NCBI GenBank assembly: GCA_964624795.1
Contig: CAZUZS010000009.1
Span: 32,361 to 96,360 of the forward strand
Source: an uncultured Calditrichaceae bacterium
GTDB lineage: Bacteria; Calditrichota; Calditrichia; RBG-13-44-9
DNA length: 64,000 bases
Direction: 5' to 3'
The stretch's first letter is position 1. Each line of letters begins with the position of its first letter. A model generated the notes under the pieces. It ran no database searches. It saw only the letters and a program-made list of their open reading frames with translations, and was not told where the DNA came from. Of this stretch, positions 12,928 to 62,238 are shown in pieces. The position numbers were made by a program, and so were the translations under genes.

Positions 12928-13046
12928 CGGCTGCTTTTTTTATAAATGAATCCGGATAAATTTTACATTAAGCAATTTATAGCGAAATTCCCAGGAATAG
13001 TTTCAGCAAAAAAAGAAAAGTCATCAACTACGCCTGGCCTGCCGGT

Positions 13047-14030: not shown

Positions 14031-14154
14031 AACCTTCCGGGAAATTCCGGCATTTCATTTTTCAGCGCGCCCGACGGCGCATTCAGGAAAAGACTTCAAT
14101 AGCCTGGCTAAGCATTTATGATATCCTGGCCTTCCGGCCATGACCAGGGGTTGG

Positions 14155-14703: not shown

Positions 14704-14726
14704 CTCAACTCTTCCGTTTTCCCTGG

Positions 14727-15569: not shown

Positions 15570-15718
15570 AAGAATTTATATCCAAATTTTTTGGCAGCTT
15601 TCCGATTCTTTTTTCTCGATAGGAATTGTGCCGACGCTCAGATTCGTGTCGATAAAGTTTGCAGCTCATATATGCAGCACCAATTCAGGCAGTATTTTCA
15701 TTAAATCGGTTTTGGACC

Positions 15719-16093: not shown

Positions 16094-16120
16094 TATAACT
16101 ATCCTTCTCTCGCTTCCTTA

Positions 16121-18492
<2,372 letters not shown>

Positions 18493-18734
18493 CAGGCAAA
18501 TCCCCCGGCAAGGGCACAGCATTTTCTTGTGTTCGGGCAATTATACCAAGCCATTTCCACACGGTCGATATCCATTTGCCGCCTATATCTTTTCAGATTT
18601 TTCAAAATTTCGATCTTCATAAATATTACGACCACCCGCGTTAATTTTATGAATCGCTCGGAATTCCGCCGCGTCCTCTGCCAAACCAATATGTTTAACC
18701 GCCTTCCGCACAGTGAAAGCAGATGTGTGGATTC

Positions 18735-32953: not shown

Positions 32954-35900
32954 TCATTTGGAAGCGTCCGGTTGACGGGATAATGTTTCAAAATACAATT
33001 TTATCAACTCCCGATACTCGGGTGAATATCCCTCCTGCAAGGCTTCCATCAACTCTTTTCGGAGACGATCCTCTTTTTGCAGCAGTGCCTCACGCAGCTC
33101 CGGCGGCGATTTCACAATCGCTTGCTTTTCCCACTCGGCTTGCCGCTTTTTGGAATATTCCTTTTCACGCACCGACTTCTGTGCATCCAGCAAACGGGAA
33201 AGGATACGCTCCTGCCGTTCAATTACTTTTCTATCCAGATTCTGCGCTTTTAGCTGTTTGATGACCTCATCCATCTCGCCACCCAGCTCTCCCAGCCGAC
33301 CTAACACATCCCGTCGATTCCCGTTTTCATCCGTCATTTTTTGCAGGGACTGCCGCACCATTTCCTGCTGGGCGGCGAGGCGCCCCAAATCATCGGAAGA
33401 AAGCTGCAATCGGCCCTGCTGCCCCTTTTGAAAGAGACTCATGCTTTGTTGATTTATTTGTCCCTGTTGCCCGGACATTTGCTGAAGCTGTTGCATAAAT
33501 TCCTGGAAGCCGGAGGCAGAAGAGGCCTGGGACATCTGGCTCATGGAACTTTGCAGTGAAAGTAATGCCCGGTTAAAACCAGCCATCGCCTCCCGCTGCG
33601 GCCTGGCTGCCTGGCGCCCATTGCGATTTTCAAGCTGTTCCAATGAATTATCCATCTTCGATATGATGTCGGCCATAACCTGGTTTAGCTGCGGCGAAAG
33701 GAAAAAAGTTTTATTCGAAATCTGGACCAGTTGTCCGATAATCCGGCGGGTAGCCTCCTGCAATTGTGATTGCTGCCGGGCGATTTCATTGATCTGGGAA
33801 GATGCCGGACTCAATTTTTCCGACTGCCGGGCCAGATTCTCCTGCTGGAAAGACGTTGAAAGCATGTCTTGCATCGCTTTTTGCATTTCGCCCGCTAATT
33901 CCTGTTTCTGCTGCATGTTCATATTCTGGCTGGCCATGTTCAGCATATTTTGCAGCTTCTGCATTTTGGAGCTGATCTGCTGGCCCGACTGCGAAGCTTG
34001 CTGCTGATTTCCGGAGGACATTTGCTGCTGCATCTGCTCCATCGCCTTTTCAATCTGCTCCTGATCCATGAAAGCCTTGGACTTTTCCAGCATTTCGGAC
34101 AACTGCTGCATCATCTCCTGGTAATCCTTGCGCGTCTGGTCGAGCTTGTCTTTCAGGAATTCAGTTTCTTTTTGCAGATTGTTTTCCTTTGTTTCCAGCC
34201 GGTTCATATCTTCCGGTGAGTTCTCTTTTTCAGCCAACTTTTGATTGACCTGGTCCTGCTCCTTCTTGATTTTATCGGCGAGATTAGCCAGCTCGTCCAT
34301 TTTCTGTTCTAACTGAACCCGTTTCAGTAGTTCGTAGGTTCTTTCAATATTCTTTTGAAACTGCTCCATGGAAAGCTGAAATTTTTCCATGGCTTTTTGC
34401 AGCTCACGGGGATCCGACTTCTCCAACGCCTGCCGCAGTTTTTCCATGGCATCCTTGAGCTCCGGCGATGCCAGGTCTTCCATCATCTTCTGGATTTCAA
34501 AATATTTTTCCACCGTTTCGGGGTTCAACATTTTGTTCTGGTCCAACTGCTTCACCACATCTTCCAGGTCCTTCTGAATTTCAGAAAGCTTGTCCATCGC
34601 CTTTCGCTGTTTTTCAAGCTGTTCCTTAATCTGCTGTTTTCTTTCCCAGTTGATGTCTGTTTCTTTCTTCAGCTCGCGATTGATTTCCTCCAGTTTCTTC
34701 TTCAACTCTTTCGATTCGCTGGAAACATCTTTCATCTTTTCCAATTGATCGTCCTGTTGCTGGTCTGCCTGCGACATGATTTCCAGCAACGATGGCAGCC
34801 GGATAGTAAATTCCGCAGTCTTAAAAGACTTGGGACCACTCACGTTATCGTTATCAAAAACTTCCACATAGTAGCGAATGTAATCATCCGGAACCATGTA
34901 GAAAGACGTCAGGTCCCAGGAATTTTCGCTGAAAGCCTTGCCGTTCTCTATTTTCCTATAAGGAAGTTTCATCCGAAAGCTGCTGCTGTCACCTCCCGAA
35001 CCCTGACGAATGACCTGGCCTTTCAACCAGAGACCGGAAAAACCGTAATCGTCTCGCAGTTCAACAAACAGCGGCATTTTAAGCTCATCACCCAAGTCCA
35101 CATCTGCCCCCGGCTGTTTGATTTCCGCGAACGGATATTCATCGCTGAGCGGGAAGATGCTGTATTCTACAGGATCAGAATTTTCGATGCTGTCCGAATC
35201 GAAAATATGGATTGCATAATTCAGGTTTTTGGATACTTTAAAGGCCCCATTCGCCGTATGTCCTGCAACTTGCAAGGGAAGGCGGGTTGAATCACTGAAA
35301 AGAACAAATGCCCCCGAAAGCTGCTTATCGGCTTCGATATGCAGATTTGCCAGGCTTCCCTTCAGCGTGGTGATCTCGCCATCGTTTGGCGGCAGCAATT
35401 TTGCCGGAAGTTTTGAGTAGGCAGGCGGGACAACCTTCACCTGGAGATTGCGAACCATTGGACGCGCGCGTACCACGACCCGCCCGGCAGGTGAAATTGC
35501 AGGCCTGTTGCGAAACCGCGGCTGGCCAATTTCTCCCAGGAAATAGTAGCCGAAGGAATTTCGCACATGATCCAGCTTGTAGTTGAATTGGCCTCCCGGC
35601 CGTACCTGCAAGCTGATTTTATTCACGTTTTGTTTCGAGTCCGACGGCGTCGTTTTTGCGGTATCTTCTATCACCAGGAAAAGATGCTCGGGAGTAACAC
35701 CTTCAAAATTGCCTTGCAGCACAACGGGATCGTTCCGGAGAACTCCAACATCTCCGGAGAGATTATTGAGCTTCACAGGAAGCGGTTCCTGAAAATTTTT
35801 CCAGGGAAGGACCATCTTTCTCAGGGCAAGCTCCACCGGCACCGGAAAAGCAACATAGACAACCAGAAGCGCCGAGAGGGCGGCCAACATGGGGCGGGTA

Positions 35901-36382
35901 TTTGCCAACAACGATTTGTATTTCACAACTTTCCGGAACGAAAGATGGGAGAAACGCTGGAACAATTGGGAAAGCGCCATATTTTTCAGCCTTGCGGAAC
36001 CACCACTGGCGCGATCCTGGTAGATCTGGATGTAATTCAGCAGCGCATCACGAACAGCAGAATCGGTTTGCCCAATGCGCCCCGCGGTATGAAATATTTC
36101 CACCTGTGACGGCGACGAAATTTCGCGAAGCGAAGGATAAATGCGGGTAAATCCGAATATAAAAAACCAGGCCACCAAACCGGCCGCAAAAATCAGCCGA
36201 AATGGCTCGGACACATTAAACAACAGGTTACTCAGAATAAAAAGCAGGGCAGCCGCCAGCGAAATGGAAAGAAAGTAAATGCTGTTCAGAAGTATTTTCC
36301 GCAGGAAAAATCGCCGGTGAACAGAGATGATGTGTTGATATATCCCGCGATATTTTTCGTTGATGTCCGAATCCATATTCAT
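32954..36382 (-). CDS. Large membrane protein (1142 aa) with an N-terminal double-TM anchor, a beta-rich middle domain and a ~500-aa Q/E/K-rich coiled-coil region (possibly DUF4175-like)
   Basis: The TM helices are ILLNSIYFLSISLAAALLFIL and LIFAAGLVAWFFIFGF, with a third, MLAALSALLVVYVAFPV. A long low-complexity coiled coil runs QMQQQMSSGNQQQASQ...MQQKQELAGEMQKAMQ. The C-terminus ends YSPEYRELIKLYFETLSR. Confidence 0.7.
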   Translation of the reverse strand: MNMDSDINEKYRGIYQHIISVHRRFFLRKILLNSIYFLSISLAAALLFILSNLLFNVSEPFRLIFAAGLVAWFFIFGFTRIYPSLREISSPSQVEIFHTAGRIGQTDSAVRDALLNYIQIYQDRASGGSARLKNMALSQLFQRFSHLSFRKVVKYKSLLANTRPMLAALSALLVVYVAFPVPVELALRKMVLPWKNFQEPLPVKLNNLSGDVGVLRNDPVVLQGNFEGVTPEHLFLVIEDTAKTTPSDSKQNVNKISLQVRPGGQFNYKLDHVRNSFGYYFLGEIGQPRFRNRPAISPAGRVVVRARPMVRNLQVKVVPPAYSKLPAKLLPPNDGEITTLKGSLANLHIEADKQLSGAFVLFSDSTRLPLQVAGHTANGAFKVSKNLNYAIHIFDSDSIENSDPVEYSIFPLSDEYPFAEIKQPGADVDLGDELKMPLFVELRDDYGFSGLWLKGQVIRQGSGGDSSSFRMKLPYRKIENGKAFSENSWDLTSFYMVPDDYIRYYVEVFDNDNVSGPKSFKTAEFTIRLPSLLEIMSQADQQQDDQLEKMKDVSSESKELKKKLEEINRELKKETDINWERKQQIKEQLEKQRKAMDKLSEIQKDLEDVVKQLDQNKMLNPETVEKYFEIQKMMEDLASPELKDAMEKLRQALEKSDPRELQKAMEKFQLSMEQFQKNIERTYELLKRVQLEQKMDELANLADKIKKEQDQVNQKLAEKENSPEDMNRLETKENNLQKETEFLKDKLDQTRKDYQEMMQQLSEMLEKSKAFMDQEQIEKAMEQMQQQMSSGNQQQASQSGQQISSKMQKLQNMLNMASQNMNMQQKQELAGEMQKAMQDMLSTSFQQENLARQSEKLSPASSQINEIARQQSQLQEATRRIIGQLVQISNKTFFLSPQLNQVMADIISKMDNSLEQLENRNGRQAARPQREAMAGFNRALLSLQSSMSQMSQASSASGFQEFMQQLQQMSGQQGQINQQSMSLFQKGQQGRLQLSSDDLGRLAAQQEMVRQSLQKMTDENGNRRDVLGRLGELGGEMDEVIKQLKAQNLDRKVIERQERILSRLLDAQKSVREKEYSKKRQAEWEKQAIVKSPPELREALLQKEDRLRKELMEALQEGYSPEYRELIKLYFETLSRQPDASK

Positions 36383-36476
36383 CGATCTTTAATTTGATAA
36401 TTGTTATTTGCCGGCAGAAAGTGCTGGGCGAATCGCAGAGCGCATAAATTCCCGGCTGCTTTGTTTTAGTTGGTTT

Positions 36477-37139
36477 TCAATGGGTTAATGCCCAAACCAG
36501 GATGTTCGTCCCCATTTTCAACGCGTTCTCCCGGATGTCCGGCGGGTCGCCATGAATATCCGGATCCTCGCAGCCGTCGCTGATATCGGTATTGAATGAG
36601 TAAAACGCCACCATCCGTCCATCGTAAAACAGCGCAAAACCGTGGGGCGGACCGCCATCGTGTTTGTGGATTTTGGGCAGTCCGTTGGGAAACTGGAAAA
36701 CGGTATGGTAGATCGGGTTCGAAAAAGGCAGTTCGACCCAGTCGAGCTTGGGGAAAACCCGTTTCATTTCCCGGCGAAACGATATATTCATGCCGTAATC
36801 ATCATCCGCCCAGAGAAATCCACCATGCGTGAGGAATTTGTGCAAACGGGCGATTTCCTCATCCGAGAATTTGATATTTCCGTGCCCTGCCATGTAAATA
36901 ATCGGGTACTTAAAGAAATCGTTGTCCAAAGGGCTGACGGTTACTTCCCGCTCTGCCGTACGAACATTCGTGTGCTGCCCGGCATAGTTAAACAAATTCA
37001 CAAAAGTGGTACGGTTGCCATACCAATCCCCGCCACCCCCGTACTTGACGCGTGCAATAGTTACCGGCTCCTGGGCAGGGAGAACCGCGGGCAGAATTAT
37101 CGCTCCCAACAGCATTATTATCCCTGGTATTCTTCTCAT
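36477..37139 (-). CDS. DUF4159-like secreted protein (class-I glutamine-amidotransferase-like fold)
   Basis: The signal peptide is MRRIPGIIMLLGAIILPAVLPA. The conserved block is IARVKYGGGGDWYGNRTTFVNL...IIYMAGHGNIKFSDEEIARLHKFLTHGGFLWADD. It sits 94 bp upstream of the coiled-coil membrane protein. Confidence 0.6.
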   Translation of the reverse strand: MRRIPGIIMLLGAIILPAVLPAQEPVTIARVKYGGGGDWYGNRTTFVNLFNYAGQHTNVRTAEREVTVSPLDNDFFKYPIIYMAGHGNIKFSDEEIARLHKFLTHGGFLWADDDYGMNISFRREMKRVFPKLDWVELPFSNPIYHTVFQFPNGLPKIHKHDGGPPHGFALFYDGRMVAFYSFNTDISDGCEDPDIHGDPPDIRENALKMGTNILVWALTH

Positions 37140-37439
37140 CACATTATTCCAAAACATGTTACTGGAAAATATACAAAAAATGCGATCAAAACTCAGCTGC
37201 CAAAAACAGCACTCAATGTTAATATCTCCATGTCTGCAAGTCGATCCGGCAGCGCCCTCTTGCAAAAACCGATCGGCCCGCGTTCAATATCTTCAACTAA
37301 CTGAATAAAAGGGAAACAGTTTCGCACCAATTATCAATTTTGGACAAAACAAAAGGGGAAACTGCACAAAACAGACGCTTTCGGAAGGCATCCGATCTGT
37401 TCGATGCAAAATCCCCTTAAGATTGAAAAACAATTCTAT

Positions 37440-37940
37440 TTAAAAGAACAACCTGCTTGCCACCATAACTACCATGGTTACCGAGCCAATTGCCTTCACG
37501 GTCAGTCCGCCAACCCGCCCAAGAATTGCGCCCAGTGTTGCATGAAGGGCATCTTTGAACGATTTGCCGCGGATAAGCTCGATTCCAAGTGTTCCCACGC
37601 TGACCCCGACAAAACCGCCAAGAATGGCGCCCAGAACGGGGCTGAAGAAAAATCCGCTTATACTGCCCAGAATTCCGCCCACAATGGCAGCGACAACACC
37701 CAATTTAGTGGCGCCATATCTTCGCGCACCGAAAGCGATAATGACATATTCCAACAACTCAACAGCTACTGCAATAATAAGAAGCGTAATCAGGAATGAG
37801 GTTGAAAATCGACTGAAGTCGGTTGCCAAACCGTACCAAATTGTATCCAGAACGACAATAAAATTTCCCGGAATGCTCAGAAAATTAGAAAAAATACTAA
37901 ATCCGAGTATTGCAATAAAAACAATCTCTAATACTTCCAT
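37440..37940 (-). CDS. DUF456-like small membrane protein
   Basis: Gly-rich TM helices are GVVAAIVGGILGSISGFFFSPVLGAILGGFVGVSVG. 166 aa. Confidence 0.5.
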   Translation of the reverse strand: MEVLEIVFIAILGFSIFSNFLSIPGNFIVVLDTIWYGLATDFSRFSTSFLITLLIIAVAVELLEYVIIAFGARRYGATKLGVVAAIVGGILGSISGFFFSPVLGAILGGFVGVSVGTLGIELIRGKSFKDALHATLGAILGRVGGLTVKAIGSVTMVVMVASRLFF

Positions 37941-37978
37941 CTATAAATCCTTATAAATTTACGTCCTTGTTTAACAAG

Positions 37979-38731
37979 TCAATCTGCGAATTGTTGCGCA
38001 AATTTTTTTCTGTTTTTTTGACTATTGAGGCCGATTTGGCTGAGGATGGACCGGACACCGAACCAACCGACTTTGGTGAAGCCGTATGCTTCGGTGTTAA
38101 GAAGCTTGTTGATTTTATATGCACCCAGGTGTGGGTTATCGGCAACAATGTGTTTTATCTTCTCTTCCAACGGACGCATGGAAAGCGGTAATTCTCTGCG
38201 ATGATCTCTTACCTCGGCTGATGCTGAAATTGGCTCGACCTTTCCGTCCGGCGCAGAAGCCGATCTTGGCTTTGGCGGCAGATAGGATTCTTCCTCTTCT
38301 TCAGCCGCGGGACTGGCGCTCTGCACCCCGGCAGACTCTCGTATTACGGTAGCGGCTGCTTCCGGCTTTCGTGCAACTTCCTCAAATTTCATTATTGCAT
38401 CTTCTGTGGCATCGTAAACATCCAGTATATGATGAAATTCAAGCAGTTCAAAAATCTCATACACATCGGGAATCATTCGAACCAGTTTAAGGTCGCCGTT
38501 GTGCTCACGGATGGATTTGATTTCGCTGATAAAAATTCCCCAGCCGGCCGAACTGATGTAATCAACGTTTCCAAGGTCGATGATAATGTTATAACGATTT
38601 TGTTTCAGGAGACTATTTAAGGCGCGTTCAACCTCGGAAGATGTGGTCGTATCAATAAAACCTCCAACCTTTATGATGGAGACCTGATTTTGACTTCCCG
38701 CTACCTCAGTCGATACTTGAATGCCTTCCAT
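37979..38731 (-). CDS. STAS-domain (anti-sigma-factor antagonist-like) protein with a C-terminal HTH-like extension
   Basis: The STAS region is VSIIKVGGFIDTTTSSEVERALNSLL...IIIDLGNVDYISSAGWGIFISE. The C-terminal ~90 aa, IKHIVADNPHLGAYKINKLLNTEAYGFTKVGWFGVRSILSQIGL, resembles the HPxxGPRKI...VSxSTVxRIL HTH of IS481-type transposases. Confidence 0.75.
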   Translation of the reverse strand: MEGIQVSTEVAGSQNQVSIIKVGGFIDTTTSSEVERALNSLLKQNRYNIIIDLGNVDYISSAGWGIFISEIKSIREHNGDLKLVRMIPDVYEIFELLEFHHILDVYDATEDAIMKFEEVARKPEAAATVIRESAGVQSASPAAEEEEESYLPPKPRSASAPDGKVEPISASAEVRDHRRELPLSMRPLEEKIKHIVADNPHLGAYKINKLLNTEAYGFTKVGWFGVRSILSQIGLNSQKNRKKFAQQFAD

Positions 38732-38808
38732 TCCATCTTCTCCGCTTTGATGATTGGATTTGAGACAATATTCATAATAATTCGTCTAATATACAGGTGC
38801 AGCTTATA

Positions 38809-41562
38809 CTAATCAACTTCTCTTTCTTTTTTCTCTGCCTGTTCTGCTACGCTTTCACTATTATCGTCAGCTTCATGATTTTCTGAAGTTGTATCTATAG
38901 GAGTTTGTTTTTCTATTTCCCCATCTTCCGGCGGCTTTTGCTCCCGCCCCGATTCCTGAGCAGGTTCTTCGGCCGGGATTTCAGGCATTGGTTCTGCCGC
39001 CTCCGGGTGTTCTTCGTCCGATCGCCGGCCCTTTACAGTTAGCATTTTTTCCCGCGATTTGATGTTGGCGGCCGGGGTCGCTACGGTGAAGACATTTGGA
39101 ATGCTTTCCTGCTCGTCTGACCGGAAACCGACCATCACTTCGCCATCCAGGGTAAGAAGCGGTGTGCCGGGCGGTTTGAGCCGGCGTTTGCCACCCCGCT
39201 GAATAAACATTTGGCGCTGTTTTTTAGTATTTAATTTAGCCCGTATTAACTCTTCGTATATAGCTCGCGGCGCCAATTCAATATTACCATATTTTTCAGT
39301 GTTTAGCGCCCCGCTGATGCGCTTGGGACCATATTCAGGATGTTCCCTGATAACATCATAAAGCTTTGTTTTTACTTCAATGCTCAAATGGCGAAGACCT
39401 ACGTTGGTATACTCATGGAGCAGTTCCCTAAGCGCAGTTATTCCGCCTTCGACATACATTTTCTTATATTTGTAATATGTTGTCGTCGATACCCCGATTT
39501 GCTGGCAGGCCTGTGCGACAGTTACATCGCTTTGCCCGGCAAGTTCGAACAATTCCTTGAACATGTCTATTTTGACATCAACCGCATCCATATTTTCCTT
39601 AAACGCAACCAGCGTCACATCATCACTCTGCTCATATCCGTTGGTAAAATTGAGAATATCCTCTTTTACATTTTTCACAAAATCGACAACATCCAGGTGC
39701 CCGTTGCGACGAATGGCAGCAAGGAACCGCTCCTCACCATAAAGCTCCCGGCTGGGATTCATTGCTTCGGTGATGCCATCGGTATAGCAGACCAGGATAT
39801 CATCGGGGTGCAGCCGGATGCGATCCGCCTTAATGGTTGTGTCAAATAGTCGAATATCGGGAAGCGTAATTCCAACCGGAAATCCCGGAGGATTCAGGTA
39901 ATAAGTTTCCTTAGTCTTGCCGCGGAAAAGAATCATGGGATTGTGGCCGGCGCTTGAGAAAGCAATCGTCCGCTCCCGGGAATCCAGGATAATATAGAAT
40001 GCCGTGACGAACATGCCTTTGCGAATATCGTCGGTAATGAATGAGTTTACCCGGGCTAACACTTCCGCCGGATTTCTATTGCCGCGCGCTTCCAGCCGCA
40101 GGGCAGTGCGGATCATAGTCATAACCATCGATCCCGGAACGCCTTTACCGGATACGTCCGCGACGCAGATTCCGGTGGTATGCTCGTCCACTTCCACGAA
40201 ATCGAAAAGATCTCCTCCCACTTCCTTGGCTGCCTGGTAGTAAGAAGTGATATCGTAACCAATGACATTCGGAAAGTCATCGGGAAGAAGCATCTGCTGG
40301 ATTTCCTGTGCAACCTGCAGCTCACGCTGCATGCGCTGCTGTTCCATCAGGTTCACCTGGGCTTCGCGGAATTTGCTGGTCATCTCGTTAAATGCTTGCG
40401 CAATCTCGCCCAGCTCATCGCTGCCGTCGATATCAAGTTCATCCTCATCAACCGTGCCGTGCCCAACCTGACGCACCCAGCCGGCCAACTTGTGGAATGG
40501 ATCCATGATAAGGGTGATCAACACAAATGAACCGCTGTATCCCACAACCAGGACAATTAGCAGCAGGAGCAACAGGTTGACCCGGCTATTGAATATTTTA
40601 TGCTCAACAAAATTCCGGTTTATCCAAATGTGGGCATACCCAAGCGGCGGCGTGTCCGCCCCCTGGATGCTGATGGGAGTCACAAAATCGAAAACCACGC
40701 TGTCGGCAGCCAGCGTACGCTGGTAGACCAGCGTTTGACCAATAGAATCGACAAATTGCTCGTTCTCCGTAATTAGCGGCTTACCGTCCAGAATCATGTC
40801 TTCTTTCATGGGATAAGTAGTGCGCGGGCGTTGTCCGGTATCGGTAATTACTACAAGGGAAATCATTTTGGGATTGCTCTCTTTTACGGACTTCGCATTC
40901 TCCGACAAAATGATAAAATCGTCTTTGCTCAACGGTTCCCATGAAATTTTGGACAGGCTCACGCTCTGCGAATACCCGCTCTCGAATATTTCACTGGTCG
41001 TATTTTCCCGGATACGGGAGTTGAAAATAATGAAGGAGACAATTGCCAGAATGGTCATAATCGCGGAAGTAACCAGCGTGAATTTGGTTCGCAGGGTGAG
41101 CGAATCCCAGACCATAAATGGTTTAGTGCGCTCCACCGTTTCCCGCATTTTGGTCAGGCGCAGCTCATTTCCCCGACTGGTTACATTATACTTAATGTCA
41201 TCCATTAGCTTGCGCATCATGAAAATGCCCAAGCCGCCTTTCTTGCCGATGGAGACATATTTATCGAGATCTGGATTCTTTACCTGCCGGGGATCAAAGC
41301 TTTTTCCATGATCGATGATGACGATCGTCAAACTCAGGCTGCGAACAATAGCGCGAATGATGATCTGTCCATTCCGAATATCGCGATATCCGTGTCGGAT
41401 GATATTGGTGCAGGATTCATCGACCACCAGTTTGAAGGAATTGATGACCTTGTGGGTGAAACGGTATTTTCTTCCGATGTGCTCGATGAAATCTCTCACC
41501 TGCCGCAGGTAGGACATCTGCGCCGGAATAATAATCTCTTCTTTTACAACATTTTTAAACAT
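38809..41562 (-). CDS. Multidomain partner-switching protein: N-terminal RsbW/SpoIIAB-like GHKL kinase, 2-TM periplasmic sensor, HAMP, PP2C (SpoIIE) phosphatase and a C-terminal transposase-type HTH
   Basis: The GHKL domain is LVVDESCTNIIRHGY...IVIIDHGKSFDP...KKGGLGIFMMRKL. The TM helices are FTLVTSAIMTILAIVSFIIF and LLLLLLIVLVVGYSGSFVLITLIM. The HAMP segment is LGEIAQAFNEMTSKFREAQ. The PP2C domain is VGGDLFDF...ICVADVSGKGVPGSMVM...SAGHNPMILF...LVCYTDGITEA. The C-terminal segment is IGVSTTTYYKYKKMYVEGGITALREL...VIREHPEYGPKRIS. Confidence 0.85.
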   Translation of the reverse strand: MFKNVVKEEIIIPAQMSYLRQVRDFIEHIGRKYRFTHKVINSFKLVVDESCTNIIRHGYRDIRNGQIIIRAIVRSLSLTIVIIDHGKSFDPRQVKNPDLDKYVSIGKKGGLGIFMMRKLMDDIKYNVTSRGNELRLTKMRETVERTKPFMVWDSLTLRTKFTLVTSAIMTILAIVSFIIFNSRIRENTTSEIFESGYSQSVSLSKISWEPLSKDDFIILSENAKSVKESNPKMISLVVITDTGQRPRTTYPMKEDMILDGKPLITENEQFVDSIGQTLVYQRTLAADSVVFDFVTPISIQGADTPPLGYAHIWINRNFVEHKIFNSRVNLLLLLLIVLVVGYSGSFVLITLIMDPFHKLAGWVRQVGHGTVDEDELDIDGSDELGEIAQAFNEMTSKFREAQVNLMEQQRMQRELQVAQEIQQMLLPDDFPNVIGYDITSYYQAAKEVGGDLFDFVEVDEHTTGICVADVSGKGVPGSMVMTMIRTALRLEARGNRNPAEVLARVNSFITDDIRKGMFVTAFYIILDSRERTIAFSSAGHNPMILFRGKTKETYYLNPPGFPVGITLPDIRLFDTTIKADRIRLHPDDILVCYTDGITEAMNPSRELYGEERFLAAIRRNGHLDVVDFVKNVKEDILNFTNGYEQSDDVTLVAFKENMDAVDVKIDMFKELFELAGQSDVTVAQACQQIGVSTTTYYKYKKMYVEGGITALRELLHEYTNVGLRHLSIEVKTKLYDVIREHPEYGPKRISGALNTEKYGNIELAPRAIYEELIRAKLNTKKQRQMFIQRGGKRRLKPPGTPLLTLDGEVMVGFRSDEQESIPNVFTVATPAANIKSREKMLTVKGRRSDEEHPEAAEPMPEIPAEEPAQESGREQKPPEDGEIEKQTPIDTTSENHEADDNSESVAEQAEKKEREVD

Positions 41563-41622
41563 TTTTTCGCTTTATTTATCAAACATTCCCATTAATATTT
41601 CAAAATCTTCCGGACACTTGTA

Positions 41623-43527
41623 CTACTGTTTCGTCCTTTTGATCCTATCTTCGGCACTTTTTATCGCATCCTGTAATTTCTTGCTGTAAGGATACTTTTT
41701 CTGCAGTTCTTTCCAGATCTCCAGCGCATCCGAGTACCTTCCGGCCAGGAACATATCGACACCCTTAATATACATCCTTGCCGATTCCTGATCCATTTCT
41801 TGTTCAACAACTCCCATTCCTCGCTTGGTTCGCTCAATATATTGTTTCAGTCGCTCATTGGACGGATCCATTTTTAATGCCTCGTCAAACAACTGAAGCG
41901 CCTTCTGGTAATCGCCCAGGTCGTAAAGCTGCAGTGCCTGCTGCACATACTGCTGTATTTTGATGCGATTGGCCAGGGTGCTGATCTCATCCTTCAATTT
42001 CGGATCTTCCGGCGCCAGAACCAACGCCTCACTTAAAATCTGCAGCGCGTCGGAATAGTTGCCCCCCTGGAACTCTTCCCGGCCCTTTGTTACCAGTTTA
42101 CGAACTTCTTCCTCCAGCCGACGGTCGGTCGAAGCAATCGCATCCTTTATTATCGGATCATCCGGCGATCGCTCCAATGCCAGGTTGAATTCGACAAGCG
42201 CATCAGTGAACTGGTTATTCTGGAGATAAACATTACCCTTATCGAAATGCAGTTTCACGAAAGTCCTGTTTTCTTCGGCCATCTCTTTATTAACTGCATT
42301 TTTGATTGCCGCCTGTTGGCGATTCTCAAAATCCTTCTGAATAAGGCGGTCGGTGCTGTCCAGCAAGGCATTTGCCGGCTTATTGAACGGGTCCACCGAA
42401 ACCACGCCCTGGAATTCAGCATAGGCGTCGAAATAGCGATTCTGATCCAGGTATTCCTTTCCCTTTTGGGTATGCTCGGTAATGAAATTTTGCTTTTCCT
42501 GTTCTTTGGTGCGATCCACGAGTTCCTTCTCGCGGCGCTTTCTCGCTTCTTCGGCGATCAGCAACATTTCTTCACGCGATTTGCCGATATCGAATGTAAT
42601 GGAAAAACGGTGGGTTGGCGGGAATGCGCCGTCGGCATTTATCGATCCGAACGAATAATCGATATGCATGAAAGAATAATTCAAACCCGCACCAAACGCC
42701 AGGTGGCTGTTGTCGAAACCAAGGCGGACGGTTCCCATCTCACGGAATGTGTACTCGGTGCCGGCTAATAAAGCAGCGCTTTCGTTTTTGCTCATGTGAT
42801 AATCAATCGCCACTCTAATCTGGCCGCTTTCTCCTATCTGCAAACCTTTGCTCAATCCTAATGTCATCAAGTATGGCTCGTTTTCAATCACGTTGCCAAG
42901 TTTCAGGTCCGGAGACACCAGGTTTCGGTAGCTCAGACCAAACGACAGGTTTTGCAGCAAATTATTTTCCCACTGTGGCCGGTACATCATCCCGATATCC
43001 AATCCCAGGCCGGTAGCATTGTTATTTATTTCAGTAAACTGCTGGCGCCTGATTTTGGTGGTAATGCCGCCAATCAGGTTGTATGGCAGCTTTTTGCTGT
43101 AAGAAAAATACAGCTCGCTCTCGTCGTACGACATTTGCCCCAGCCGCTCGTTCGTGGTAGTAACCACCGGAATATCACCGGTTCCCAGGCGAGTGTAACC
43201 AAGCCCTACCGTGCCGTAGGTGAGCGTCGGGTATACAATCCCTACAAAATCGTACATGGTTCCCTCAAACACCTGATCATGGAAAAGCGTGAAACTGAGA
43301 CGGGGAATCAACTCCAGCCCGGCAGGATTCCAGAAAACTGCCGTGGGGTCATTCGCTACCGCTACATAGGCACGTCCCAGACCCAGGGCACGCGCACCGA
43401 CACCATAACTTAGGGGCAATGTAGTGCCGTATTCGCCATCCGATTGGGCCGATAAAAGAGCGGGAAGTAATAGGACTCCATACAGACCAACCAGCCATTT
43501 TCCTGCAGATTTCATTATTTTGCGCAT
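41623..43527 (-). CDS. Outer-membrane beta-barrel (FadL/PorV-like N-terminal signature) fused to C-terminal TPR repeats
   Basis: The signal peptide is LVGLYGVLLLPALLSAQ. The signature GVGARALGLGRAYVAVANDPTAVFWNPAGL matches the FadL / PorV (LptO) family start. A ~300-aa barrel ends in an aromatic-rich strand. A ~300-aa helical TPR-like C-terminus contains repeated ...ALQLYDLGDYQKALQLFDEALKMDP. It starts 14 bp after the giant gene's stop. Confidence 0.6.
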   Translation of the reverse strand: MRKIMKSAGKWLVGLYGVLLLPALLSAQSDGEYGTTLPLSYGVGARALGLGRAYVAVANDPTAVFWNPAGLELIPRLSFTLFHDQVFEGTMYDFVGIVYPTLTYGTVGLGYTRLGTGDIPVVTTTNERLGQMSYDESELYFSYSKKLPYNLIGGITTKIRRQQFTEINNNATGLGLDIGMMYRPQWENNLLQNLSFGLSYRNLVSPDLKLGNVIENEPYLMTLGLSKGLQIGESGQIRVAIDYHMSKNESAALLAGTEYTFREMGTVRLGFDNSHLAFGAGLNYSFMHIDYSFGSINADGAFPPTHRFSITFDIGKSREEMLLIAEEARKRREKELVDRTKEQEKQNFITEHTQKGKEYLDQNRYFDAYAEFQGVVSVDPFNKPANALLDSTDRLIQKDFENRQQAAIKNAVNKEMAEENRTFVKLHFDKGNVYLQNNQFTDALVEFNLALERSPDDPIIKDAIASTDRRLEEEVRKLVTKGREEFQGGNYSDALQILSEALVLAPEDPKLKDEISTLANRIKIQQYVQQALQLYDLGDYQKALQLFDEALKMDPSNERLKQYIERTKRGMGVVEQEMDQESARMYIKGVDMFLAGRYSDALEIWKELQKKYPYSKKLQDAIKSAEDRIKRTKQ

Positions 43528-43541: not shown

Positions 43542-46500
43542 TTATTTGATATATGCTACTTTGGTTTTATAACTTTTTGATTGACCATCACTATACCGGA
43601 TGTTAAGAATTGCAATATAGACCCCATTCAACACCCGGTTGCCGGCATTATTCGTCCCGTTCCAGATCAACCCATTATTGTTGTGACCGTCATAAAGCTG
43701 ACCACCGGTGAAACTTTTCTGCTGCGAATAGACAAGCCCGCCCAGCAGAGTGTAAATCCGGATCTCGGCGGTGCCATTTTTCTCCATCCAAAAAACGAAA
43801 TTGGTGGAAGCCTCATCCATGCCGAAAGGATTTGGATGGTTGCCAAATATCTTGTCCTTGTCACCAGAAATAACCGTCAGCGCATAAGAACCGCCGACGT
43901 CCCCGCCGGAGCTAAAGAGATTGCCCTGCTCATCGACAATCTCGACCGGGTTGTCATGCGACCCGGTAAATGCGCGGATCGACCCAACATGCAGTTTAAA
44001 GCTCTGGTTCGGTGATTGGCGGCTAAGATTAAGCAGGACGACCAAACTGTCTTTAACGCCGGGTATAATATTCAGGTGATTCGTGAACTCAAGTGGAATT
44101 TCGTCGCCGTCCGCAGATGTGACATCATAGGCGGCGAAGACAGTTGGCGCAGAACCCACTTTTTGCAGATTTCTGAGATATGCCCGGTTCACGATCTTGA
44201 CGGAGTCTATCAGTGAGGAAGGGTTTAATACCGGCGATCCATCGAGCTGTTGCACCAGCAGGCTTAAGCTGTCAATGGTCACAGTAGGCACAAACTCCGA
44301 GACTTTCCGGTTATCGAACACCAGCCCGATAAGCGGCACGTCTTCGGTTCCCTGTTGCCGGATAACATTTTCCTGCTGGCTGAACTCCAATGGTATTACT
44401 ACCAGGCGATGAACTTCGGTAGCAATGGAAAGCGTTGCCGAGCTGCTGTCCGGATCAAGCGCCGCCGGTTGGGCAGTGTTAACATCATTCGGGACCTGGA
44501 CAAACTGCGCCCCGATTCCGGTGCTGATGATTTGCCGTGGCGTCCTCAAATCCCAGCTTACCGAATCCGGGTAAGTGAAAGATTTGACCTGCGTTTCGCC
44601 CGATGCCAGGGCGATAGAATCCTGCGGGTTGAGCTGCAGCCGCAACTGGCCCTGCCCGGAGAGTTGTGCATCTCCCTTATTCCTTATCTTTGCCACCACC
44701 GTGAACGACTGATCAAATGAAAGCCGGTGACCTCCGCCGGTATCGGGCCGGCCTTTGATCCGCAGCCGGAGGCTGAGCATAGCCTTTCGTTCCAGCACGA
44801 AATTGCCGGAGGAATCGGAAGCCAGGGCCTGGCCGCTGTTTGCATCCGTGGCGGCAACCGCAACTTGCAGCGGTATCGTGGTCGGACCGTCGATCGTCGC
44901 CGGTGCCTGTATCTGCCAGCTCACCGATGTTCCGGTAAAGGACTTGGTGGAATCCGGAACCTGCATTCCGGTAATTCGCAATACTGCTGATCGCCGCTCG
45001 CTCACCTGGCTGGAAGCCTCGATTTCGGTCTGCACCGTGAACAACTGGCCAGTGCTGATCCTGGGCTGTGTCTGAATCCCTGCTATTCTAAACAGGGCGC
45101 TTTCCTGAATGACTATGGGCGTCTGCACCTGTGTGACGGTGGTAGAGGCCGTTTGATTGGTCAGCGAATCTTTCGGAATCTGGTTGTAAGTAACAGCAAG
45201 CATCGATGCATTCACAATGTTAACAATCTCGTCATAGAGATCGTTAATTTGCTGTTTTATTCGGCCGGCCCCTGCCGCGAAAGCAGAACCTTCCACGGGC
45301 ATACCTTCCATTGGTGTTTGCATGTGCTGTTGTTTTGCCTGAAGGTTCCGCACCCTGGACATGAGCGCATTCACCTGGCTGTTGCTGTCAACCCGTACTG
45401 TCCAGGTTACCGGCTGATCAACAACGAACGGCTTTACCGGATCCTGGTTCACGAGCTGCAACGAACTGCCGGGCGTCAGCCGCAGTGAAGCAGCGCCGGT
45501 AACTCCCGCCTGGCCGGTATTGCGCACTGTCGCCTGGTAGGTAAATGTCTGACCGTAACTTACCGTATCGTCGCGTGCTCCGGCAGGTTCGGTGATTTCA
45601 GCGCTGAGCGCCAATGTCGCCCGCGTGATTGCCCGCAGCCTCACGAAAGCCGTGTCGCGCAGCGTGAGGTTGTTCACCGGCGAAGTCGACTCTGTGATCA
45701 CCCGAATCACCTTGTCTTGCTGTGTTGCAGTTCCGGGTGCCTTCAAATACCATGTGACCGAACTGTCGGACGGGATAAGCTGCTGTTGATTGCTGGTACT
45801 TGTAACCCCCGATGGCAGCGTAAGTGTTGCCAACCGGTTTTCGGTAAACAGCGGATTCAGATTTACCTTCACTTCCAGCGGTATGCTGTCCTGGTTAGTA
45901 GAAACGGTGATGCTGGTGTCATTCACATTACTGAAGAAATGGAACGACTGAATGGAGAAATTGCCCAGATCCAGCACCCGGATTCCGAAGGTGCGGGTGG
46001 AATCGGATTTAAATACCGGCACGGTGGCGTAATTATTCTCATCATAATACAGCGTGTCATTCAAAATCTTGGGTAATGAGATCGTAAAATCGTGTGAACC
46101 GCCGCTGTTCGAACTCTGCAAATTCCACCTCAGGGTGTCTCCAATTCTCATTGAATGAAGCGTATCGCCCTGCGAAAGCGAAAATGCGCTTGCATCATAG
46201 CGGAGGTGAACCGGTATCTTATTTCCAGGCGAAACGCCGGCTGTCCCTGTATTGGTGACAATCGCCGAAATTTCGAATGGCTGATTTAAAGCCAGGGTGT
46301 CGGGGTAATCCAACACATTAACGTGCAGGTTGGCGCGTTCCACGATGCGCATATCGGTGAAGCGCACCAGGCCGGTATCGACGAACGCCGGCTGGCCGGA
46401 ATTGATATCGATAGCTGCATTGATAATTTGCGCTAAGATAGTTTGCCGATCCGGGTAGGCTGTCGCGGATGTGTAAATTGAATTGACAACAGTGCGGTTC

Positions 46501-61721: not shown

Positions 61722-61743
61722 AATTGCTTCCTGTACTCTTTGA

Positions 61744-62238
61744 TTAACGGTTGGAAATAGAAGGTATGATGCCTGAAGCGAACACCTGGTCTGATACTTT
61801 ATTGCCATCGGAGCCGGCAACGATTTCTTTAAAATTTACCTGGTTTTTAACCAGTGGTGTTTTCAAGATATTTCCAACACACTTTATGTGCAATTCATCG
61901 CTGCTTTTTAAAAGATTTTCTTCAAAAAACAACATGATGCCTTCAGGCACCTTCTGCCAGGCAACAACCGAATCCCTGACAGGTTCCGAAAAGCTGTTTT
62001 GAAGCCAGACCTGTTTTTTATTTATTTCGAGAGAAACCGGTATGAGTACGATTTCCTTTGGCATCTCCACAAGTATACCATTTGCAGGGGCAATATTCAA
62101 ATTCAGCGTCAGATCGCATTCCCAATCGGAGGTCGTCTGCGGGATCGGATCTATCCGAACTCCAACCTCTGCCTGTTGGGCATAAATTCCCGTGATTAAA
62201 AACAAAATCATTATGAGACTTAATGATTTTAGATGCAT
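61744..62238 (-). CDS. Small secreted hypothetical protein immediately upstream of the giant adhesin gene
   Basis: The signal peptide is MHLKSLSLIMILFLITGIYAQQ. 164 aa. The stop lies 22 bp before the adhesin ATG. Confidence 0.5.
   Translation of the reverse strand: MHLKSLSLIMILFLITGIYAQQAEVGVRIDPIPQTTSDWECDLTLNLNIAPANGILVEMPKEIVLIPVSLEINKKQVWLQNSFSEPVRDSVVAWQKVPEGIMLFFEENLLKSSDELHIKCVGNILKTPLVKNQVNFKEIVAGSDGNKVSDQVFASGIIPSISNR

What the first reader, a model, noticed from the sequence alone, without database searches (positions are those of the whole stretch)
37979..39250. STAS antagonist and the kinase/phosphatase both end in a domain resembling the N-terminal HTH of IS481-type transposases
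The C-terminus of the 917-aa protein (...VAQACQQIGVSTTTYYKYKKMYVEGGITALREL...KLYDVIREHPEYGPKRISGALNTEKYGNIELAPRAIYEELIRAKLN) aligns by eye with the IS481/integrase-type transposase N-terminus, in the blocks GVSxSTLYRWxxRYxEGGLxAL and EHPxWGPRKIxxxLxxxGIxVSxSTVxRIL. The STAS protein's C-terminus (IKHIVADNPHLGAYKINKLLNTEAYGFTKVGWFGVRSILSQIGL) matches the second of these HTH units. No DDE catalytic domain follows in either case. This suggests domesticated transposase DNA-binding domains used as output or dimerisation modules of a signalling system, rather than IS remnants. Two adjacent genes carrying the same exapted domain points to a shared target, either DNA or each other.
Basis: seen in the sequence. 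Interest (0 to 1): 0.75.

Follow-up and report, generated by a model that had tools for sequence, protein, structure and literature searches.

The report
Signalling pair carrying transposase-type DNA-binding domains
Two neighbouring bacterial signalling genes, a membrane sensor that both adds and removes a phosphate and the small protein it modifies, each carry a long-conserved DNA-binding-type domain of the kind normally found at the front of jumping-gene enzymes, which suggests this switch acts on DNA directly instead of through a sigma factor.

Summary
The 917-aa protein (38809-41562, minus strand) reads RsbW-type kinase, membrane sensor, HAMP, PP2C phosphatase, HTH1 (res 672-715), HTH2 (722-790), a near-invariant motif KPPGTPLLTLDG, then an acidic tail. 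Its HTH module matches the N-terminus of IS481-family transposases (NCBIfam E 2e-10; profile-profile E 1.7e-12). The adjacent 250-aa protein is STAS, a variable linker, and one HTH2 copy (res 185-245). That copy is homologous to the enzyme's HTH2 (hhalign E 2.2e-13).

These are not IS relics. I found no DDE domain, no terminal repeats and no other copy in the window. Both fusions sit in the same operon position in Calditrichota and neighbouring lineages: 78 of 80 loci carry the enzyme HTH module, and 59 of 74 carry an adjacent STAS-HTH2 gene. dN/dS of the HTH units (0.01-0.06) equals that of the catalytic domains.

Related lineages fuse kinase, PP2C, HTH1, HTH2 and three STAS domains into one chain.

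Function is inferred. Most likely the HTH units give enzyme and substrate a shared DNA target, so STAS phosphorylation at Ser61 is read out without a sigma factor. Direct HTH2-HTH2 docking is the main rival.

This is a new variant of partner-switching systems.

The parts
38809..41562 (-). 917-aa bifunctional membrane sensor. Order: RsbW-type Ser kinase, TM, extracytoplasmic region, TM, HAMP, PP2C, HTH1, HTH2, PGTP motif, acidic tail.
   Evidence: ORF. Pfam and NCBIfam hits. Orthologues at 53-100% identity across Calditrichota. The two TM segments (about res 156-182 and 325-352) are read from hydrophobic stretches in the sequence, not from a predictor.
41149..41529 (-). HATPase_c_2 (RsbW/SpoIIAB-like serine kinase) domain, res 12-138
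   Evidence: Pfam PF13581, 97.2 bits against a cutoff of 27.4. E49, N53, H57 and the GGLG box are invariant in 18 orthologues.
40372..40521 (-). HAMP domain, res 348-397
   Evidence: Pfam PF00672, 36.9 bits against a cutoff of 25.
39598..40185 (-). SpoIIE/PP2C serine phosphatase domain, res 460-655
   Evidence: Pfam PF07228, 173.5 bits against a cutoff of 25. The Asp-rich motifs GGDLxDF, ADVSGKG, YTDG and DD(I/V)T are invariant or nearly so.
39418..39549 (-). HTH1, res 672-715. First unit (HTH_23/28/29 type) of the transposase-like bipartite module. Recognition helix is S-T-T-T-Y-Y-K-Y-K.
   Evidence: AF2 pLDDT is 87-89 for this block.
39193..39399 (-). HTH2, res 722-790. Second unit (HTH_32/HTH_21 type) plus a basic helix.
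   Evidence: AF2 pLDDT is 82-95. dN/dS of HTH1-2 is 0.01-0.05.
39142..39201 (-). Near-invariant motif RGGKRRLKPPGTPLLTLDG, res 788-807. Function unexplained.
   Evidence: Invariant columns. Present in 77 of 80 loci. dN/dS is 0.00-0.03. pLDDT is below 50 in the isolated module.
38812..39117 (-). Variable, acidic, low-complexity C-terminal tail, res 816-917
   Evidence: Poorly conserved and variable in length in A1. dN/dS is 0.15-0.18.
37979..38731 (-). 250-aa STAS - linker - HTH2 protein, the substrate and probable output of the switch
38396..38692 (-). STAS domain, res 14-112. The predicted phospho-acceptor Ser61 is encoded at 38549-38551.
   Evidence: Pfam STAS scores 65.2 bits against a cutoff of 22.6. 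TIGR00377 scores 67.8 against 53.45. Ser61 aligns with the phospho-Ser of SpoIIAA, RsbV and TM1442 and is invariant.
38180..38377 (-). Variable linker, res 119-184
   Evidence: Unalignable and variable in length in A2. dN/dS is 0.13-0.33.
37997..38179 (-). C-terminal HTH2 copy, res 185-245. Keeps the IS481-like recognition helix G-V-R-S-I and a basic C-terminal helix.
41623..43527 (-). Context: PorV/PorQ-family outer-membrane barrel fused to TPR repeats, immediately upstream in the same operon
   Evidence: NF033709 scores 128.7 bits against a cutoff of 90. TPR hits. Present upstream in 62 of 63 loci with enough flank.
43542..61820 (-). Context: giant 6092-aa repetitive surface protein with a T9SS C-terminal-domain-like end
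   Evidence: ORF. Weak PorU/PorZ C-terminal matches. A relative lies upstream in 45 of 57 loci.
32954..37940 (-). Context: downstream conserved genes DUF456 (37440-37940), DUF4159 (36477-37265) and DUF4175 (32954-36382)
   Evidence: Pfam hits. Synteny.

Best explanation
Shown by the tests run here: this is a chromosomal, vertically inherited partner-switching pair of Calditrichota.
- The 917-aa membrane protein combines an RsbW-type serine kinase and a PP2C phosphatase behind a transmembrane sensor and a HAMP domain.
- Its predicted substrate is Ser61 of the adjacent STAS protein.
- Both proteins carry an anciently exapted DNA-binding module of the type found at the N-terminus of IS481/IS3-family transposases. 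The enzyme has the full bipartite module (HTH1 + HTH2).
- The STAS protein has one HTH2 unit that is a duplicate of the enzyme's HTH2.
- No catalytic transposase part remains.

Inferred mechanism:
- The HTH units are nucleic-acid (DNA) binding and co-localisation modules that put enzyme and substrate on the same target.
- The envelope signal sensed by the membrane protein then sets the phosphorylation state of STAS-HTH2.
- That state is read out directly at DNA. The likely effect is on transcription of the conserved envelope operon: giant surface protein, PorV-like protein, DUF4159 and DUF4175.
- This replaces the classical sequestration of a sigma factor.
For: Architecture and homology:
- The IS481 model matches residues 671-784 at E 2e-10.
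- The module profile aligns with a profile of real IS481-family transposases at E 1.7e-12.
- The STAS tail aligns with the enzyme's HTH2 at E 2.2e-13. Its match to the transposase HTH2 is far weaker, E 0.026. This indicates one capture followed by an intra-system duplication.

A working switch is plausible:
- Ser61 aligns with the phospho-Ser of SpoIIAA, RsbV and TM1442 and is invariant.
- Kinase and PP2C motifs are invariant.

Exaptation:
- There is no rve domain, no IRs, no second copy and no transposase in the window.
- 78 of 80 related loci carry HTH1+HTH2 in the enzyme. 59 of 74 have the STAS-HTH2 gene directly downstream.
- dN/dS of the HTH units is 0.01-0.06. Catalytic domains give 0.01-0.05. 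Linkers and the acidic tail give 0.13-0.33.

Shared target:
- In Krumholzibacteriota-type relatives, one HTH1-HTH2 module sits between the PP2C domain and three fused STAS domains, and no further HTH2 was detected after them. The STAS part needs its own HTH2 only when it is a separate protein.

DNA-binding plausibility:
- HTH1 keeps the transposase-like recognition helix (S-x-S-T-Y-Y-K-Y-K against S-R-D-S-F-Y-R-F-K). The STAS tail keeps G-V-R-S-I.
- The HTH2 cores carry net charge +3.3 and +4.5. The segments that follow carry +7.3 and +4.3.

No sigma factor lies in the conserved operon.
Against: - No DNA target was found. The short intergenic regions inside the operon show only ribosome-binding sites and start codons as conserved words. 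The operon promoter lies outside the loci I could compare.
- The enzyme's HTH2 has Y-E-E where transposases and the STAS tail have V-R-S in the recognition helix. This fits a protein-contact role at least as well as DNA contact.
- Structure searches gave only generic HTH similarity, with no significant Foldseek hit.
- A single HTH2 (RED-like) unit on STAS may bind DNA weakly on its own.
- In 11 of 74 loci no STAS gene is adjacent.
- Kinase, phosphatase and DNA-binding activities are all untested.
Confidence: 0.55

Rival explanations
1. Docking model. The HTH2 units no longer bind DNA. They bind each other, or the STAS tail binds the enzyme's HTH1-HTH2 or KPPGTPLLTLDG region. This tethers the STAS substrate to its cognate kinase/phosphatase and gives specificity among many paralogous partner-switching modules.
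For: - The two HTH2 units are each other's closest relatives.
- The enzyme's HTH2 recognition helix has become Y-E-E, while the tail keeps a basic V-R-S helix plus a basic C-terminal helix. The surfaces could be complementary.
- When STAS domains are covalently fused to the enzyme, no separate STAS-tail HTH2 was detected.
- Docking interactions are known to set the substrate specificity of PPM phosphatases for STAS proteins (PMC11418112, abstract seen).
Against: - In the covalent fusions the enzyme keeps HTH1-HTH2 although tethering is no longer needed, so the module must do something else as well.
- HTH1 keeps a transposase-like recognition helix.
- Both units are net basic.
- STAS-HTH2-coiled coil-HTH2 proteins exist.
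- Complex prediction could not be run.
Confidence: 0.3
2. Shared ancestry without domestication. The module belongs to an old cellular family of tandem HTH domains that transposases also use, so 'transposase-derived' has the direction wrong.
For: Among the best 150 of 621 profile hits, none of the 20 Pfam-scanned carries an rve/DDE domain. The closest non-PP2C relatives scanned are tandem (HTH1-HTH2)x2 modules, most of them fused to GT2 glycosyltransferases, two of them from Patescibacteria.
Against: - The best curated-family match of the whole module is the IS481 transposase model, followed by IS3, IS630 and ISNCY transposase models.
- The matching Pfam families (HTH_23/28/29/32/21, HTH_Tnp_1, LZ_Tnp_IS481) are, to my knowledge, defined mainly on transposases.
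- No phylogeny was made. The domains are too short for a robust one.
Confidence: 0.15
3. Decayed IS insertions. An IS481-type element inserted at the 3' ends of both genes and decayed, creating chimeric ORFs with no function for the HTH parts.
For: The resemblance to transposase N-termini is real.
Against: - Same architecture and same position in 78 of 80 loci spanning Calditrichota and beyond.
- dN/dS is 0.01-0.06.
- No IRs, no DDE remnant, and no IS anywhere in the window.
Confidence: 0.02
4. Chance or generic HTH resemblance. The C-termini are ordinary HTH regulators with no specific link to transposases.
For: Structure searches return only generic HTH folds such as NarL, ArgR, PerR and FapR. 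Foldseek finds nothing at E <= 0.001. Individual Pfam HTH hits are mostly below the gathering thresholds.
Against: - The whole two-unit arrangement, including the linker, aligns with IS481 transposases over ~95-110 residues at E 1e-10 to 1e-12.
- The only tblastn hit in 72,556 plasmids is an annotated IS481 family transposase.
Confidence: 0.05

Closest known systems
Bacillus partner-switching modules (RsbU/RsbV/RsbW; SpoIIE/SpoIIAA/SpoIIAB)
   Same: - STAS antagonist with the conserved phospho-Ser (Ser61 here, aligned to SpoIIAA, RsbV and TM1442).
- GHKL serine kinase of the HATPase_c_2 type.
- PP2C/SpoIIE phosphatase.
   Different: - Kinase and phosphatase are one membrane protein with a HAMP domain.
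- NCBIfam RsbW and SpoIIAB equivalog cutoffs are not reached (76.9 against 145; 41.7 against 135).
- No sigma factor lies in the conserved operon.
- Both partners carry transposase-type HTH domains, which the Bacillus proteins lack.
Vibrio fischeri SypE-SypA and Pseudomonas HsbR-HsbA (bifunctional kinase/PP2C proteins with a STAS output)
   Same: - An RsbW-like kinase and a PP2C phosphatase in a single polypeptide act on an adjacent single STAS protein.
- The output concerns the cell surface or biofilm, not only a sigma factor (PMC3610818, PMC4517449, PMC6482189, PMC5085249; abstracts seen).
- Here too the operon encodes surface and envelope proteins.
   Different: - SypE and HsbR are cytoplasmic and controlled by a receiver (REC) domain. 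This protein has two TM segments, an extracytoplasmic region and a HAMP domain, and no REC hit.
- SypA and HsbA are STAS-only proteins. Here STAS carries an HTH2 tail and the enzyme carries HTH1-HTH2.
- The review of STAS-only proteins I searched mentions no HTH or DNA-binding fusions (PMC8256260).
N-terminal DNA-binding region of IS481-family (and IS3/IS630) transposases
   Same: Same order and spacing of two HTH units (HTH_23/28 type, then HTH_32/21 type). Profile-profile E is 1.7e-12. The NCBIfam IS481 model is matched at positions 5-114.
   Different: - No rve/DDE domain, no terminal inverted repeats, single copy, fixed genomic position.
- The NCBIfam score is 40.7 against a cutoff of 224, so this is not a transposase.
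Paired-type (PAI/RED) bipartite DNA-binding domains of Tc1/mariner transposases and Pax transcription factors
   Same: - Two tethered HTH units.
- In eukaryotes this is a textbook case of a transposase DNA-binding module reused by cellular regulators (own knowledge).
- Pax, the Sleeping Beauty RED subdomain, TnsB and POU appear among the top, non-significant, Foldseek matches.
   Different: The structural matches are not significant (E >= 0.07). The host here is a bacterial kinase/phosphatase and a STAS protein, not a stand-alone transcription factor.
ToxR/CadC-type membrane-anchored DNA-binding regulators
   Same: If the enzyme's HTH module binds DNA, a single membrane protein would couple an extracytoplasmic signal to DNA without a diffusible intermediate (own knowledge of ToxR/CadC).
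   Different: A functional analogy only. The DNA-binding fold differs (OmpR-type winged helix there), and those proteins have no kinase, phosphatase or STAS chemistry.

Membership tests
Partner-switching system (RsbW/RsbV/RsbU type) | STAS antagonist with a conserved phosphorylatable serine | tested here: met
   Pfam STAS scores 65.2 against 22.6. TIGR00377 scores 67.8 against 53.45. Ser61 aligns with the phospho-Ser of SpoIIAA, RsbV and TM1442 and is invariant in 19 orthologues.
Partner-switching system (RsbW/RsbV/RsbU type) | GHKL-type serine kinase (HATPase_c_2) | tested here: met
   PF13581 scores 97.2 bits against a cutoff of 27.4. N-box and G-box residues are invariant. Activity was not tested.
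Partner-switching system (RsbW/RsbV/RsbU type) | PP2C (SpoIIE-family) phosphatase | tested here: met
   PF07228 scores 173.5 bits against a cutoff of 25. Metal-binding Asp motifs are conserved.
Partner-switching system (RsbW/RsbV/RsbU type) | A sigma factor sequestered by the kinase as the output | tested here: inconclusive
   No sigma factor lies in the conserved operon. The only Sigma70_r2 ORF in the window is about 30 kb away at 7533-8441. Binding cannot be tested here.
RsbW / SpoIIAB orthologue (NCBIfam equivalogs) | Score at or above the curated equivalog cutoff | tested here: not met
   NF003144 scores 76.9 against 145. TIGR01924 scores 66 against 155. TIGR01925 scores 41.7 against 135.
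SypE/HsbR-type bifunctional regulator | Kinase and PP2C in one polypeptide next to a STAS gene | tested here: met
   The adjacency is conserved in 63 of 74 loci.
SypE/HsbR-type bifunctional regulator | Receiver (REC) domain controlling the kinase/phosphatase balance | tested here: not met
   No Response_reg hit. TM segments and a HAMP domain are present instead.
IS481-family insertion sequence / transposase | N-terminal bipartite HTH region | tested here: met
   NF033577 is matched at positions 5-114, E 2e-10. hhalign against a profile of 14 IS481-family transposases gives E 1.7e-12.
IS481-family insertion sequence / transposase | DDE (rve) catalytic domain | tested here: not met
   No rve hit in either protein. 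The sequence after HTH2 is a short motif plus an acidic low-complexity tail. The motif does not align with the first strand of the transposase catalytic core. The NF033577 score of 40.7 is far below the cutoff of 224.
IS481-family insertion sequence / transposase | Terminal inverted repeats; multicopy or variable genomic location | tested here: not met
   Only short, imperfect inverted repeats inside coding sequence. No further copy in the window. Fixed syntenic position in 80 loci.
Pfam HTH_21 / HTH_32 (second HTH unit) | Score at or above the Pfam gathering threshold | tested here: not met
   The window STAS tail scores 17.1 against 28.1 for HTH_21. The enzyme segment scores 21.0 against 33.7 for HTH_32. 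31 of 40 orthologous tails match HTH_21 at E <= 1, best 2.9e-5. One orthologue (P0239) has a precomputed PF13276 hit.
Pfam HTH_23 (first HTH unit) | Score at or above the Pfam gathering threshold | tested here: met
   The isolated C-terminal segment scores 24.9 against a cutoff of 24.6, which is marginal. The full protein scores 21.8, below the cutoff. Many orthologues have precomputed PF13384, PF13518 or PF13551 hits.
Helix-turn-helix DNA-binding domain (fold level) | Helical HTH fold | tested here: met
Helix-turn-helix DNA-binding domain (fold level) | Actual binding to DNA | not testable with these tools
   Indirect evidence only: a transposase-like recognition helix in HTH1 and in the STAS tail, and net positive charge. 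No conserved DNA motif was found in the operon's internal intergenic regions.

The most novel reading that the evidence does not exclude
This is a sigma-factor-free partner switch whose output is DNA binding. The membrane-anchored kinase/phosphatase and its STAS substrate would assemble a composite transposase-like (paired-type) DNA-binding complex from the enzyme's HTH1-HTH2 and the substrate's HTH2. The phosphorylation state of Ser61 would control that assembly. An envelope signal would thereby be coupled directly to transcription, or to membrane tethering, of the locus encoding the giant T9SS-type surface protein. This would be a new output mode for STAS/PP2C signalling, and a bacterial counterpart of the reuse of transposase DNA-binding modules by eukaryotic Pax-type regulators.
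Probability: 0.2. Interest if true: 0.8.

Novelty: new variant of a known kind. Interest (0 to 1): 0.55.

Why it matters
Partner-switching systems are among the most widespread bacterial signalling devices. For the many that do not control a sigma factor (SypE/SypA, HsbR/HsbA and others), the question of what the STAS protein actually does is still largely open.

Here a whole phylum, including the cultivated Caldithrix abyssi, carries a version in which both the STAS protein and its kinase/phosphatase have a conserved DNA-binding-type domain. The output is therefore written into the sequence and can be tested directly with EMSA or DAP-seq, Ser61 mutants and interaction assays.

It is also a clean, old and selectively maintained prokaryotic example of a transposase-type DNA-binding module reused by host signalling proteins. 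Natural 'Rosetta-stone' fusions (kinase, PP2C, HTH and three STAS domains in one chain) tie the parts together.

Finally, it links this switch to a conserved operon for a giant surface protein and a PorV-like outer-membrane protein, which suggests what the switch regulates.

Tried and rejected
- **Complex prediction.** I built a concatenated-chain AlphaFold model (enzyme C-terminal module + STAS protein, paired alignment of 31 loci) to look for an HTH2-HTH2 or motif-STAS interface.
- **KPPGTPLLTLDG as a DDE relic.** I tested whether the motif is a remnant of the first beta-strand ('PG...D') of the IS481 DDE core. hhalign of the motif profile against the transposase profile gave E 0.15 at the wrong position, so the idea has no support.
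- **Conserved DNA motif.** I searched the three short intergenic regions inside the operon across 54-73 loci. The only over-represented words were the RBS (AGGAGG) and the start codons with the first codons of the genes.
- **Foldseek against PDB.** Nothing reached E <= 0.001 for either the 169-aa module or the 74-aa tail. The lists are merely enriched in bipartite or transposase HTH domains. The afdb50 library was unavailable.
- **PDB sequence search.** The module profile gave only a weak TetR-like hit (3o60, E 0.017), which is uninformative.
- **Inverted repeats around 36000-43000.** Only short, imperfect pairs inside coding sequence.
- **Plasmid tblastn.** The module gave one weak hit (E 0.8). 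It was useful only as a source of a bona fide IS481 transposase.
- **Donor IS.** Looking for a donor in the present genome was rejected as uninformative, because the capture predates the phylum.
- **Literature.** Searches found no description of STAS-HTH or PP2C-HTH(transposase-type) proteins.

Full report
**What is there.**

The finding concerns two adjacent minus-strand genes.

The 917-aa product of 38809-41562 has the following parts:
- an N-terminal HATPase_c_2 serine-kinase domain (res 12-138);
- two hydrophobic segments flanking an extracytoplasmic region;
- a HAMP domain (348-397);
- a SpoIIE/PP2C phosphatase domain (460-655), all three domains well above the Pfam thresholds.

The 250-aa product of 37979-38731 is an anti-sigma-antagonist-type STAS protein (Pfam STAS, TIGR00377). 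Its Ser61 aligns with the phosphorylated serine of SpoIIAA, RsbV and TM1442.

Together these are the parts of a partner-switching module, with kinase and phosphatase in one membrane protein.

**The observation.**

Residues 671-784 of the large protein match positions 5-114 of the NCBIfam IS481-family transposase model (E 2e-10). Weaker matches go to IS3, IS630 and ISNCY transposase models. The same stretch gives sub- or near-threshold Pfam hits to HTH_29, HTH_23, HTH_32, HTH_Tnp_1 and HTH_28.

To test this against real transposases I proceeded as follows:
- I fetched the only plasmid tblastn hit, an annotated IS481 family transposase of Eleftheria terrae.
- I collected 13 relatives of it.
- I compared profiles. 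The signalling module aligns with transposase residues 22-116 at 97.7% probability, E 1.7e-12 (98.2% in global mode).

The STAS protein's last ~60 residues align with the second HTH unit of the large protein. BLASTP gives E 4e-7. hhalign gives 98% probability, E 2.2e-13. The tail also matches Pfam HTH_21 in 31 of 40 orthologues.

Against the transposase profile, the tail aligns in the right register but only at E 0.026. The tail is therefore much closer to the enzyme's HTH2 than to any transposase. This points to one capture followed by duplication within the system.

- The stated range misses HTH1 (39418-39549) and most of HTH2 (39193-39399).
- The large protein continues after HTH2 with a near-invariant motif and an acidic tail.

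**Relic or exaptation.**

Everything points to exaptation.
- Neither protein has an rve/DDE hit.
- The neighbourhood and the rest of the window contain no transposase. They look like core chromosome: Lpt/Kds LPS genes, CTP synthase, ABC transporters.
- There are no meaningful inverted repeats.
- HMMs of the two HTH units find no other copy in the six-frame translation of the window.

Homologues of both proteins come from Calditrichota genomes and metagenomes, including Caldithrix abyssi. All 120 listed STAS homologues carry the tail.

In 80 loci from species-representative genomes:
- 78 enzymes have HTH1+HTH2 and 77 have the motif;
- 63 of 74 loci with enough downstream sequence have an adjacent STAS gene, 59 of them with a detectable HTH2 tail.

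Nei-Gojobori dN/dS on three close pairs gave:

| Region | dN/dS |
|---|---|
| HTH1-2 | 0.01-0.05 |
| STAS tail | 0.02-0.06 |
| Kinase and PP2C domains | 0.01-0.05 |
| Sensor region | 0.05-0.24 |
| Linker and acidic tail | 0.13-0.33 |

These values are. dS is saturated in two of the pairs. The least diverged pair, with dS ~0.2-0.3, gives 0.05 for HTH1-2 and 0.02 for the STAS tail.

**Wider family.**

A full HMMER scan of 1.84 billion representative proteins with the module profile gave 621 hits at E <= 1e-3. I classified the best 150 with local HMMs of each domain and with Pfam. The classes are:
- the Calditrichota-type architecture;
- the same architecture without the motif;
- single polypeptides with kinase, HAMP, PP2C, HTH1, HTH2 and three STAS domains, one of them from Krumholzibacteriota (P0298, P0303);
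- STAS-HTH2-coiled coil-HTH2 proteins (P0363, P0380);
- stand-alone HTH2 proteins;
- GT2 glycosyltransferases with two tandem HTH1-HTH2 modules at the N-terminus, the two looked up being from Patescibacteria.

None of the 20 proteins scanned with Pfam had a DDE domain. The label 'transposase-type' is therefore secure, but 'transposase-derived' is an inference from where these HTH families mostly occur.

**Structure.**

AlphaFold2 models the enzyme's module with pLDDT 82-95 over HTH1 and HTH2. The motif scores below 50. The STAS tail scores pLDDT 93 as a four-helix unit.

**How it probably works.**

Shown:
- The domain parts are present.
- The phospho-acceptor serine is conserved.
- The HTH units are homologous to each other and to the transposase N-terminus.
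- The HTH units are conserved across lineages and under purifying selection.
- The operon context is conserved.

Inferred:
- The membrane protein senses an envelope signal and sets the phosphorylation state of Ser61.
- The HTH units bring enzyme and substrate to a common target.

I favour DNA as that target for four reasons.
- HTH1 and the STAS tail keep transposase-like recognition helices (S-x-S-T-Y-Y-K-Y-K; G-V-R-S-I).
- Both HTH2 cores and the segments after them are basic.
- The fused variants keep HTH1-HTH2 even though tethering is then unnecessary.
- The operon has no sigma factor.

The main rival is direct HTH2-HTH2 (or tail-motif) docking.
- It is supported by the Y-E-E substitution in the enzyme's HTH2 recognition helix.
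- It is supported by no further HTH2 being detected after the fused STAS domains.
- Docking is also known to matter for PPM-STAS specificity (PMC11418112).

I could not discriminate between the two. The only intergenic regions available show just RBS and start-codon words.

**Context.**

The pair sits in a strikingly conserved operon, in this order:
- a giant 6092-aa repetitive protein with a T9SS C-terminal-domain-like end;
- a PorV/PorQ-family barrel fused to TPR repeats (NF033709, above cutoff);
- the enzyme;
- the STAS-HTH2 protein;
- DUF456;
- DUF4159;
- DUF4175;
- a patatin-POTRA-Omp85 protein.

It suggests that the switch controls production or assembly of a surface structure. That would resemble SypE/SypA and HsbR/HsbA, which control biofilm-related outputs (PMC3610818, PMC4517449, PMC6482189, PMC5085249).

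**Comparison and novelty.**

The system works like a SypE/HsbR-type bifunctional partner switch, but it is not a member of those families. It has no REC domain, and the RsbW/SpoIIAB equivalog cutoffs are not met. It is not an IS481 element, because it has no DDE domain, no IRs and no mobility.

I found no paper describing STAS-HTH or kinase/PP2C-HTH(transposase-type) proteins. The general idea that hosts co-opt HTH domains from mobile elements is established (PMC8987985).

I rate it a new variant of a known kind. It is of moderate to good interest because it makes the output of a sigma-independent partner switch directly testable.

Noticed in passing
window 39142-39201 (minus strand; res 788-807 of the 917-aa protein): The motif RGGKRRLKPPGTPLLTLDG right after HTH2 is the most conserved stretch of the C-terminal half. 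It is present in 77 of 80 loci with dN/dS 0.00-0.03. It is unstructured in the isolated model, and it is absent where three STAS domains are fused after HTH2. Its function is unknown. A DDE-strand relic origin was tested and found no support.
   Followed up: partly
window 30064-61820 (minus strand): A conserved operon surrounds the pair. In order: giant 6092-aa surface protein with a T9SS-CTD-like end; PorV/PorQ-family barrel fused to TPR; kinase/PP2C-HTH; STAS-HTH2; DUF456; DUF4159; DUF4175; patatin-POTRA-Omp85. The same order is found in most of 80 loci from Calditrichota and neighbouring lineages.
   Followed up: partly
P0298 (1511 aa), P0303 (1438 aa; Krumholzibacteriota MDZ7860209.1); also fragments P0297, P0299, P0301, P0305, P0306: Natural 'Rosetta-stone' fusions carry kinase, HAMP, PP2C, HTH1, HTH2 and three STAS domains in one polypeptide. 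They have no KPPGTPLLTLDG motif and no additional HTH2 after the STAS domains.
   Followed up: partly
P0363 (383 aa), P0380 (386 aa): STAS proteins with two HTH2 units separated by a highly charged coiled coil. This is another way of attaching this HTH to a STAS domain.
   Followed up: no
P0337, P0348 (Patescibacteria); P0340, P0355, P0361, P0367, P0371, P0383 (taxon not looked up): The closest non-PP2C relatives of the module are GT2 glycosyltransferases with two tandem transposase-type HTH1-HTH2 modules at the N-terminus and no DDE domain. This looks like a second, unrelated reuse of the same module.
   Followed up: partly
window 38396-38692 (STAS domain); alignment A2: The STAS domain is almost invariant across proteins that are only 56-72% identical overall, while the linker is unalignable. 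This implies unusually strong constraints, probably from several binding partners.
   Followed up: no
window 39232-39276 versus 38024-38068 (third helices of the two HTH2 units): The STAS tail keeps the IS481-like recognition helix G-V-R-S-I. The enzyme's HTH2 has I-Y-E-E-L at the same place (Y769 and E771 invariant). The two copies have diverged in the helix that would contact DNA.
   Followed up: partly
P0100, P0110, P0115, P0120 and other 1100-1300-aa orthologues (alignment A1, columns ~1240-1400): Longer Calditrichia orthologues have an additional conserved helical domain after the acidic linker. The window's protein lacks it. P0095 and P0096 instead have HTH1 duplicated.
   Followed up: no
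L057-L067, L069, L073, L074, L077 (MAGs labelled Bacteroidota or 'bacterium'): In this lineage the enzyme keeps HTH1, HTH2 and the motif, and the PorV-TPR gene lies upstream. No STAS gene follows, so the partner, if any, is encoded elsewhere.
   Followed up: partly
window 7533-8441 (minus strand) and 10472-18540: An ORF with a Sigma70_r2 domain lies ~30 kb from the pair. An LPS/KDO cluster (LptB/A/C-like, KdsD, KdsC, KdsA, CTP synthase, KdsB) occupies 10.4-18.5 kb. The window is core chromosome with no mobile elements.
   Followed up: no
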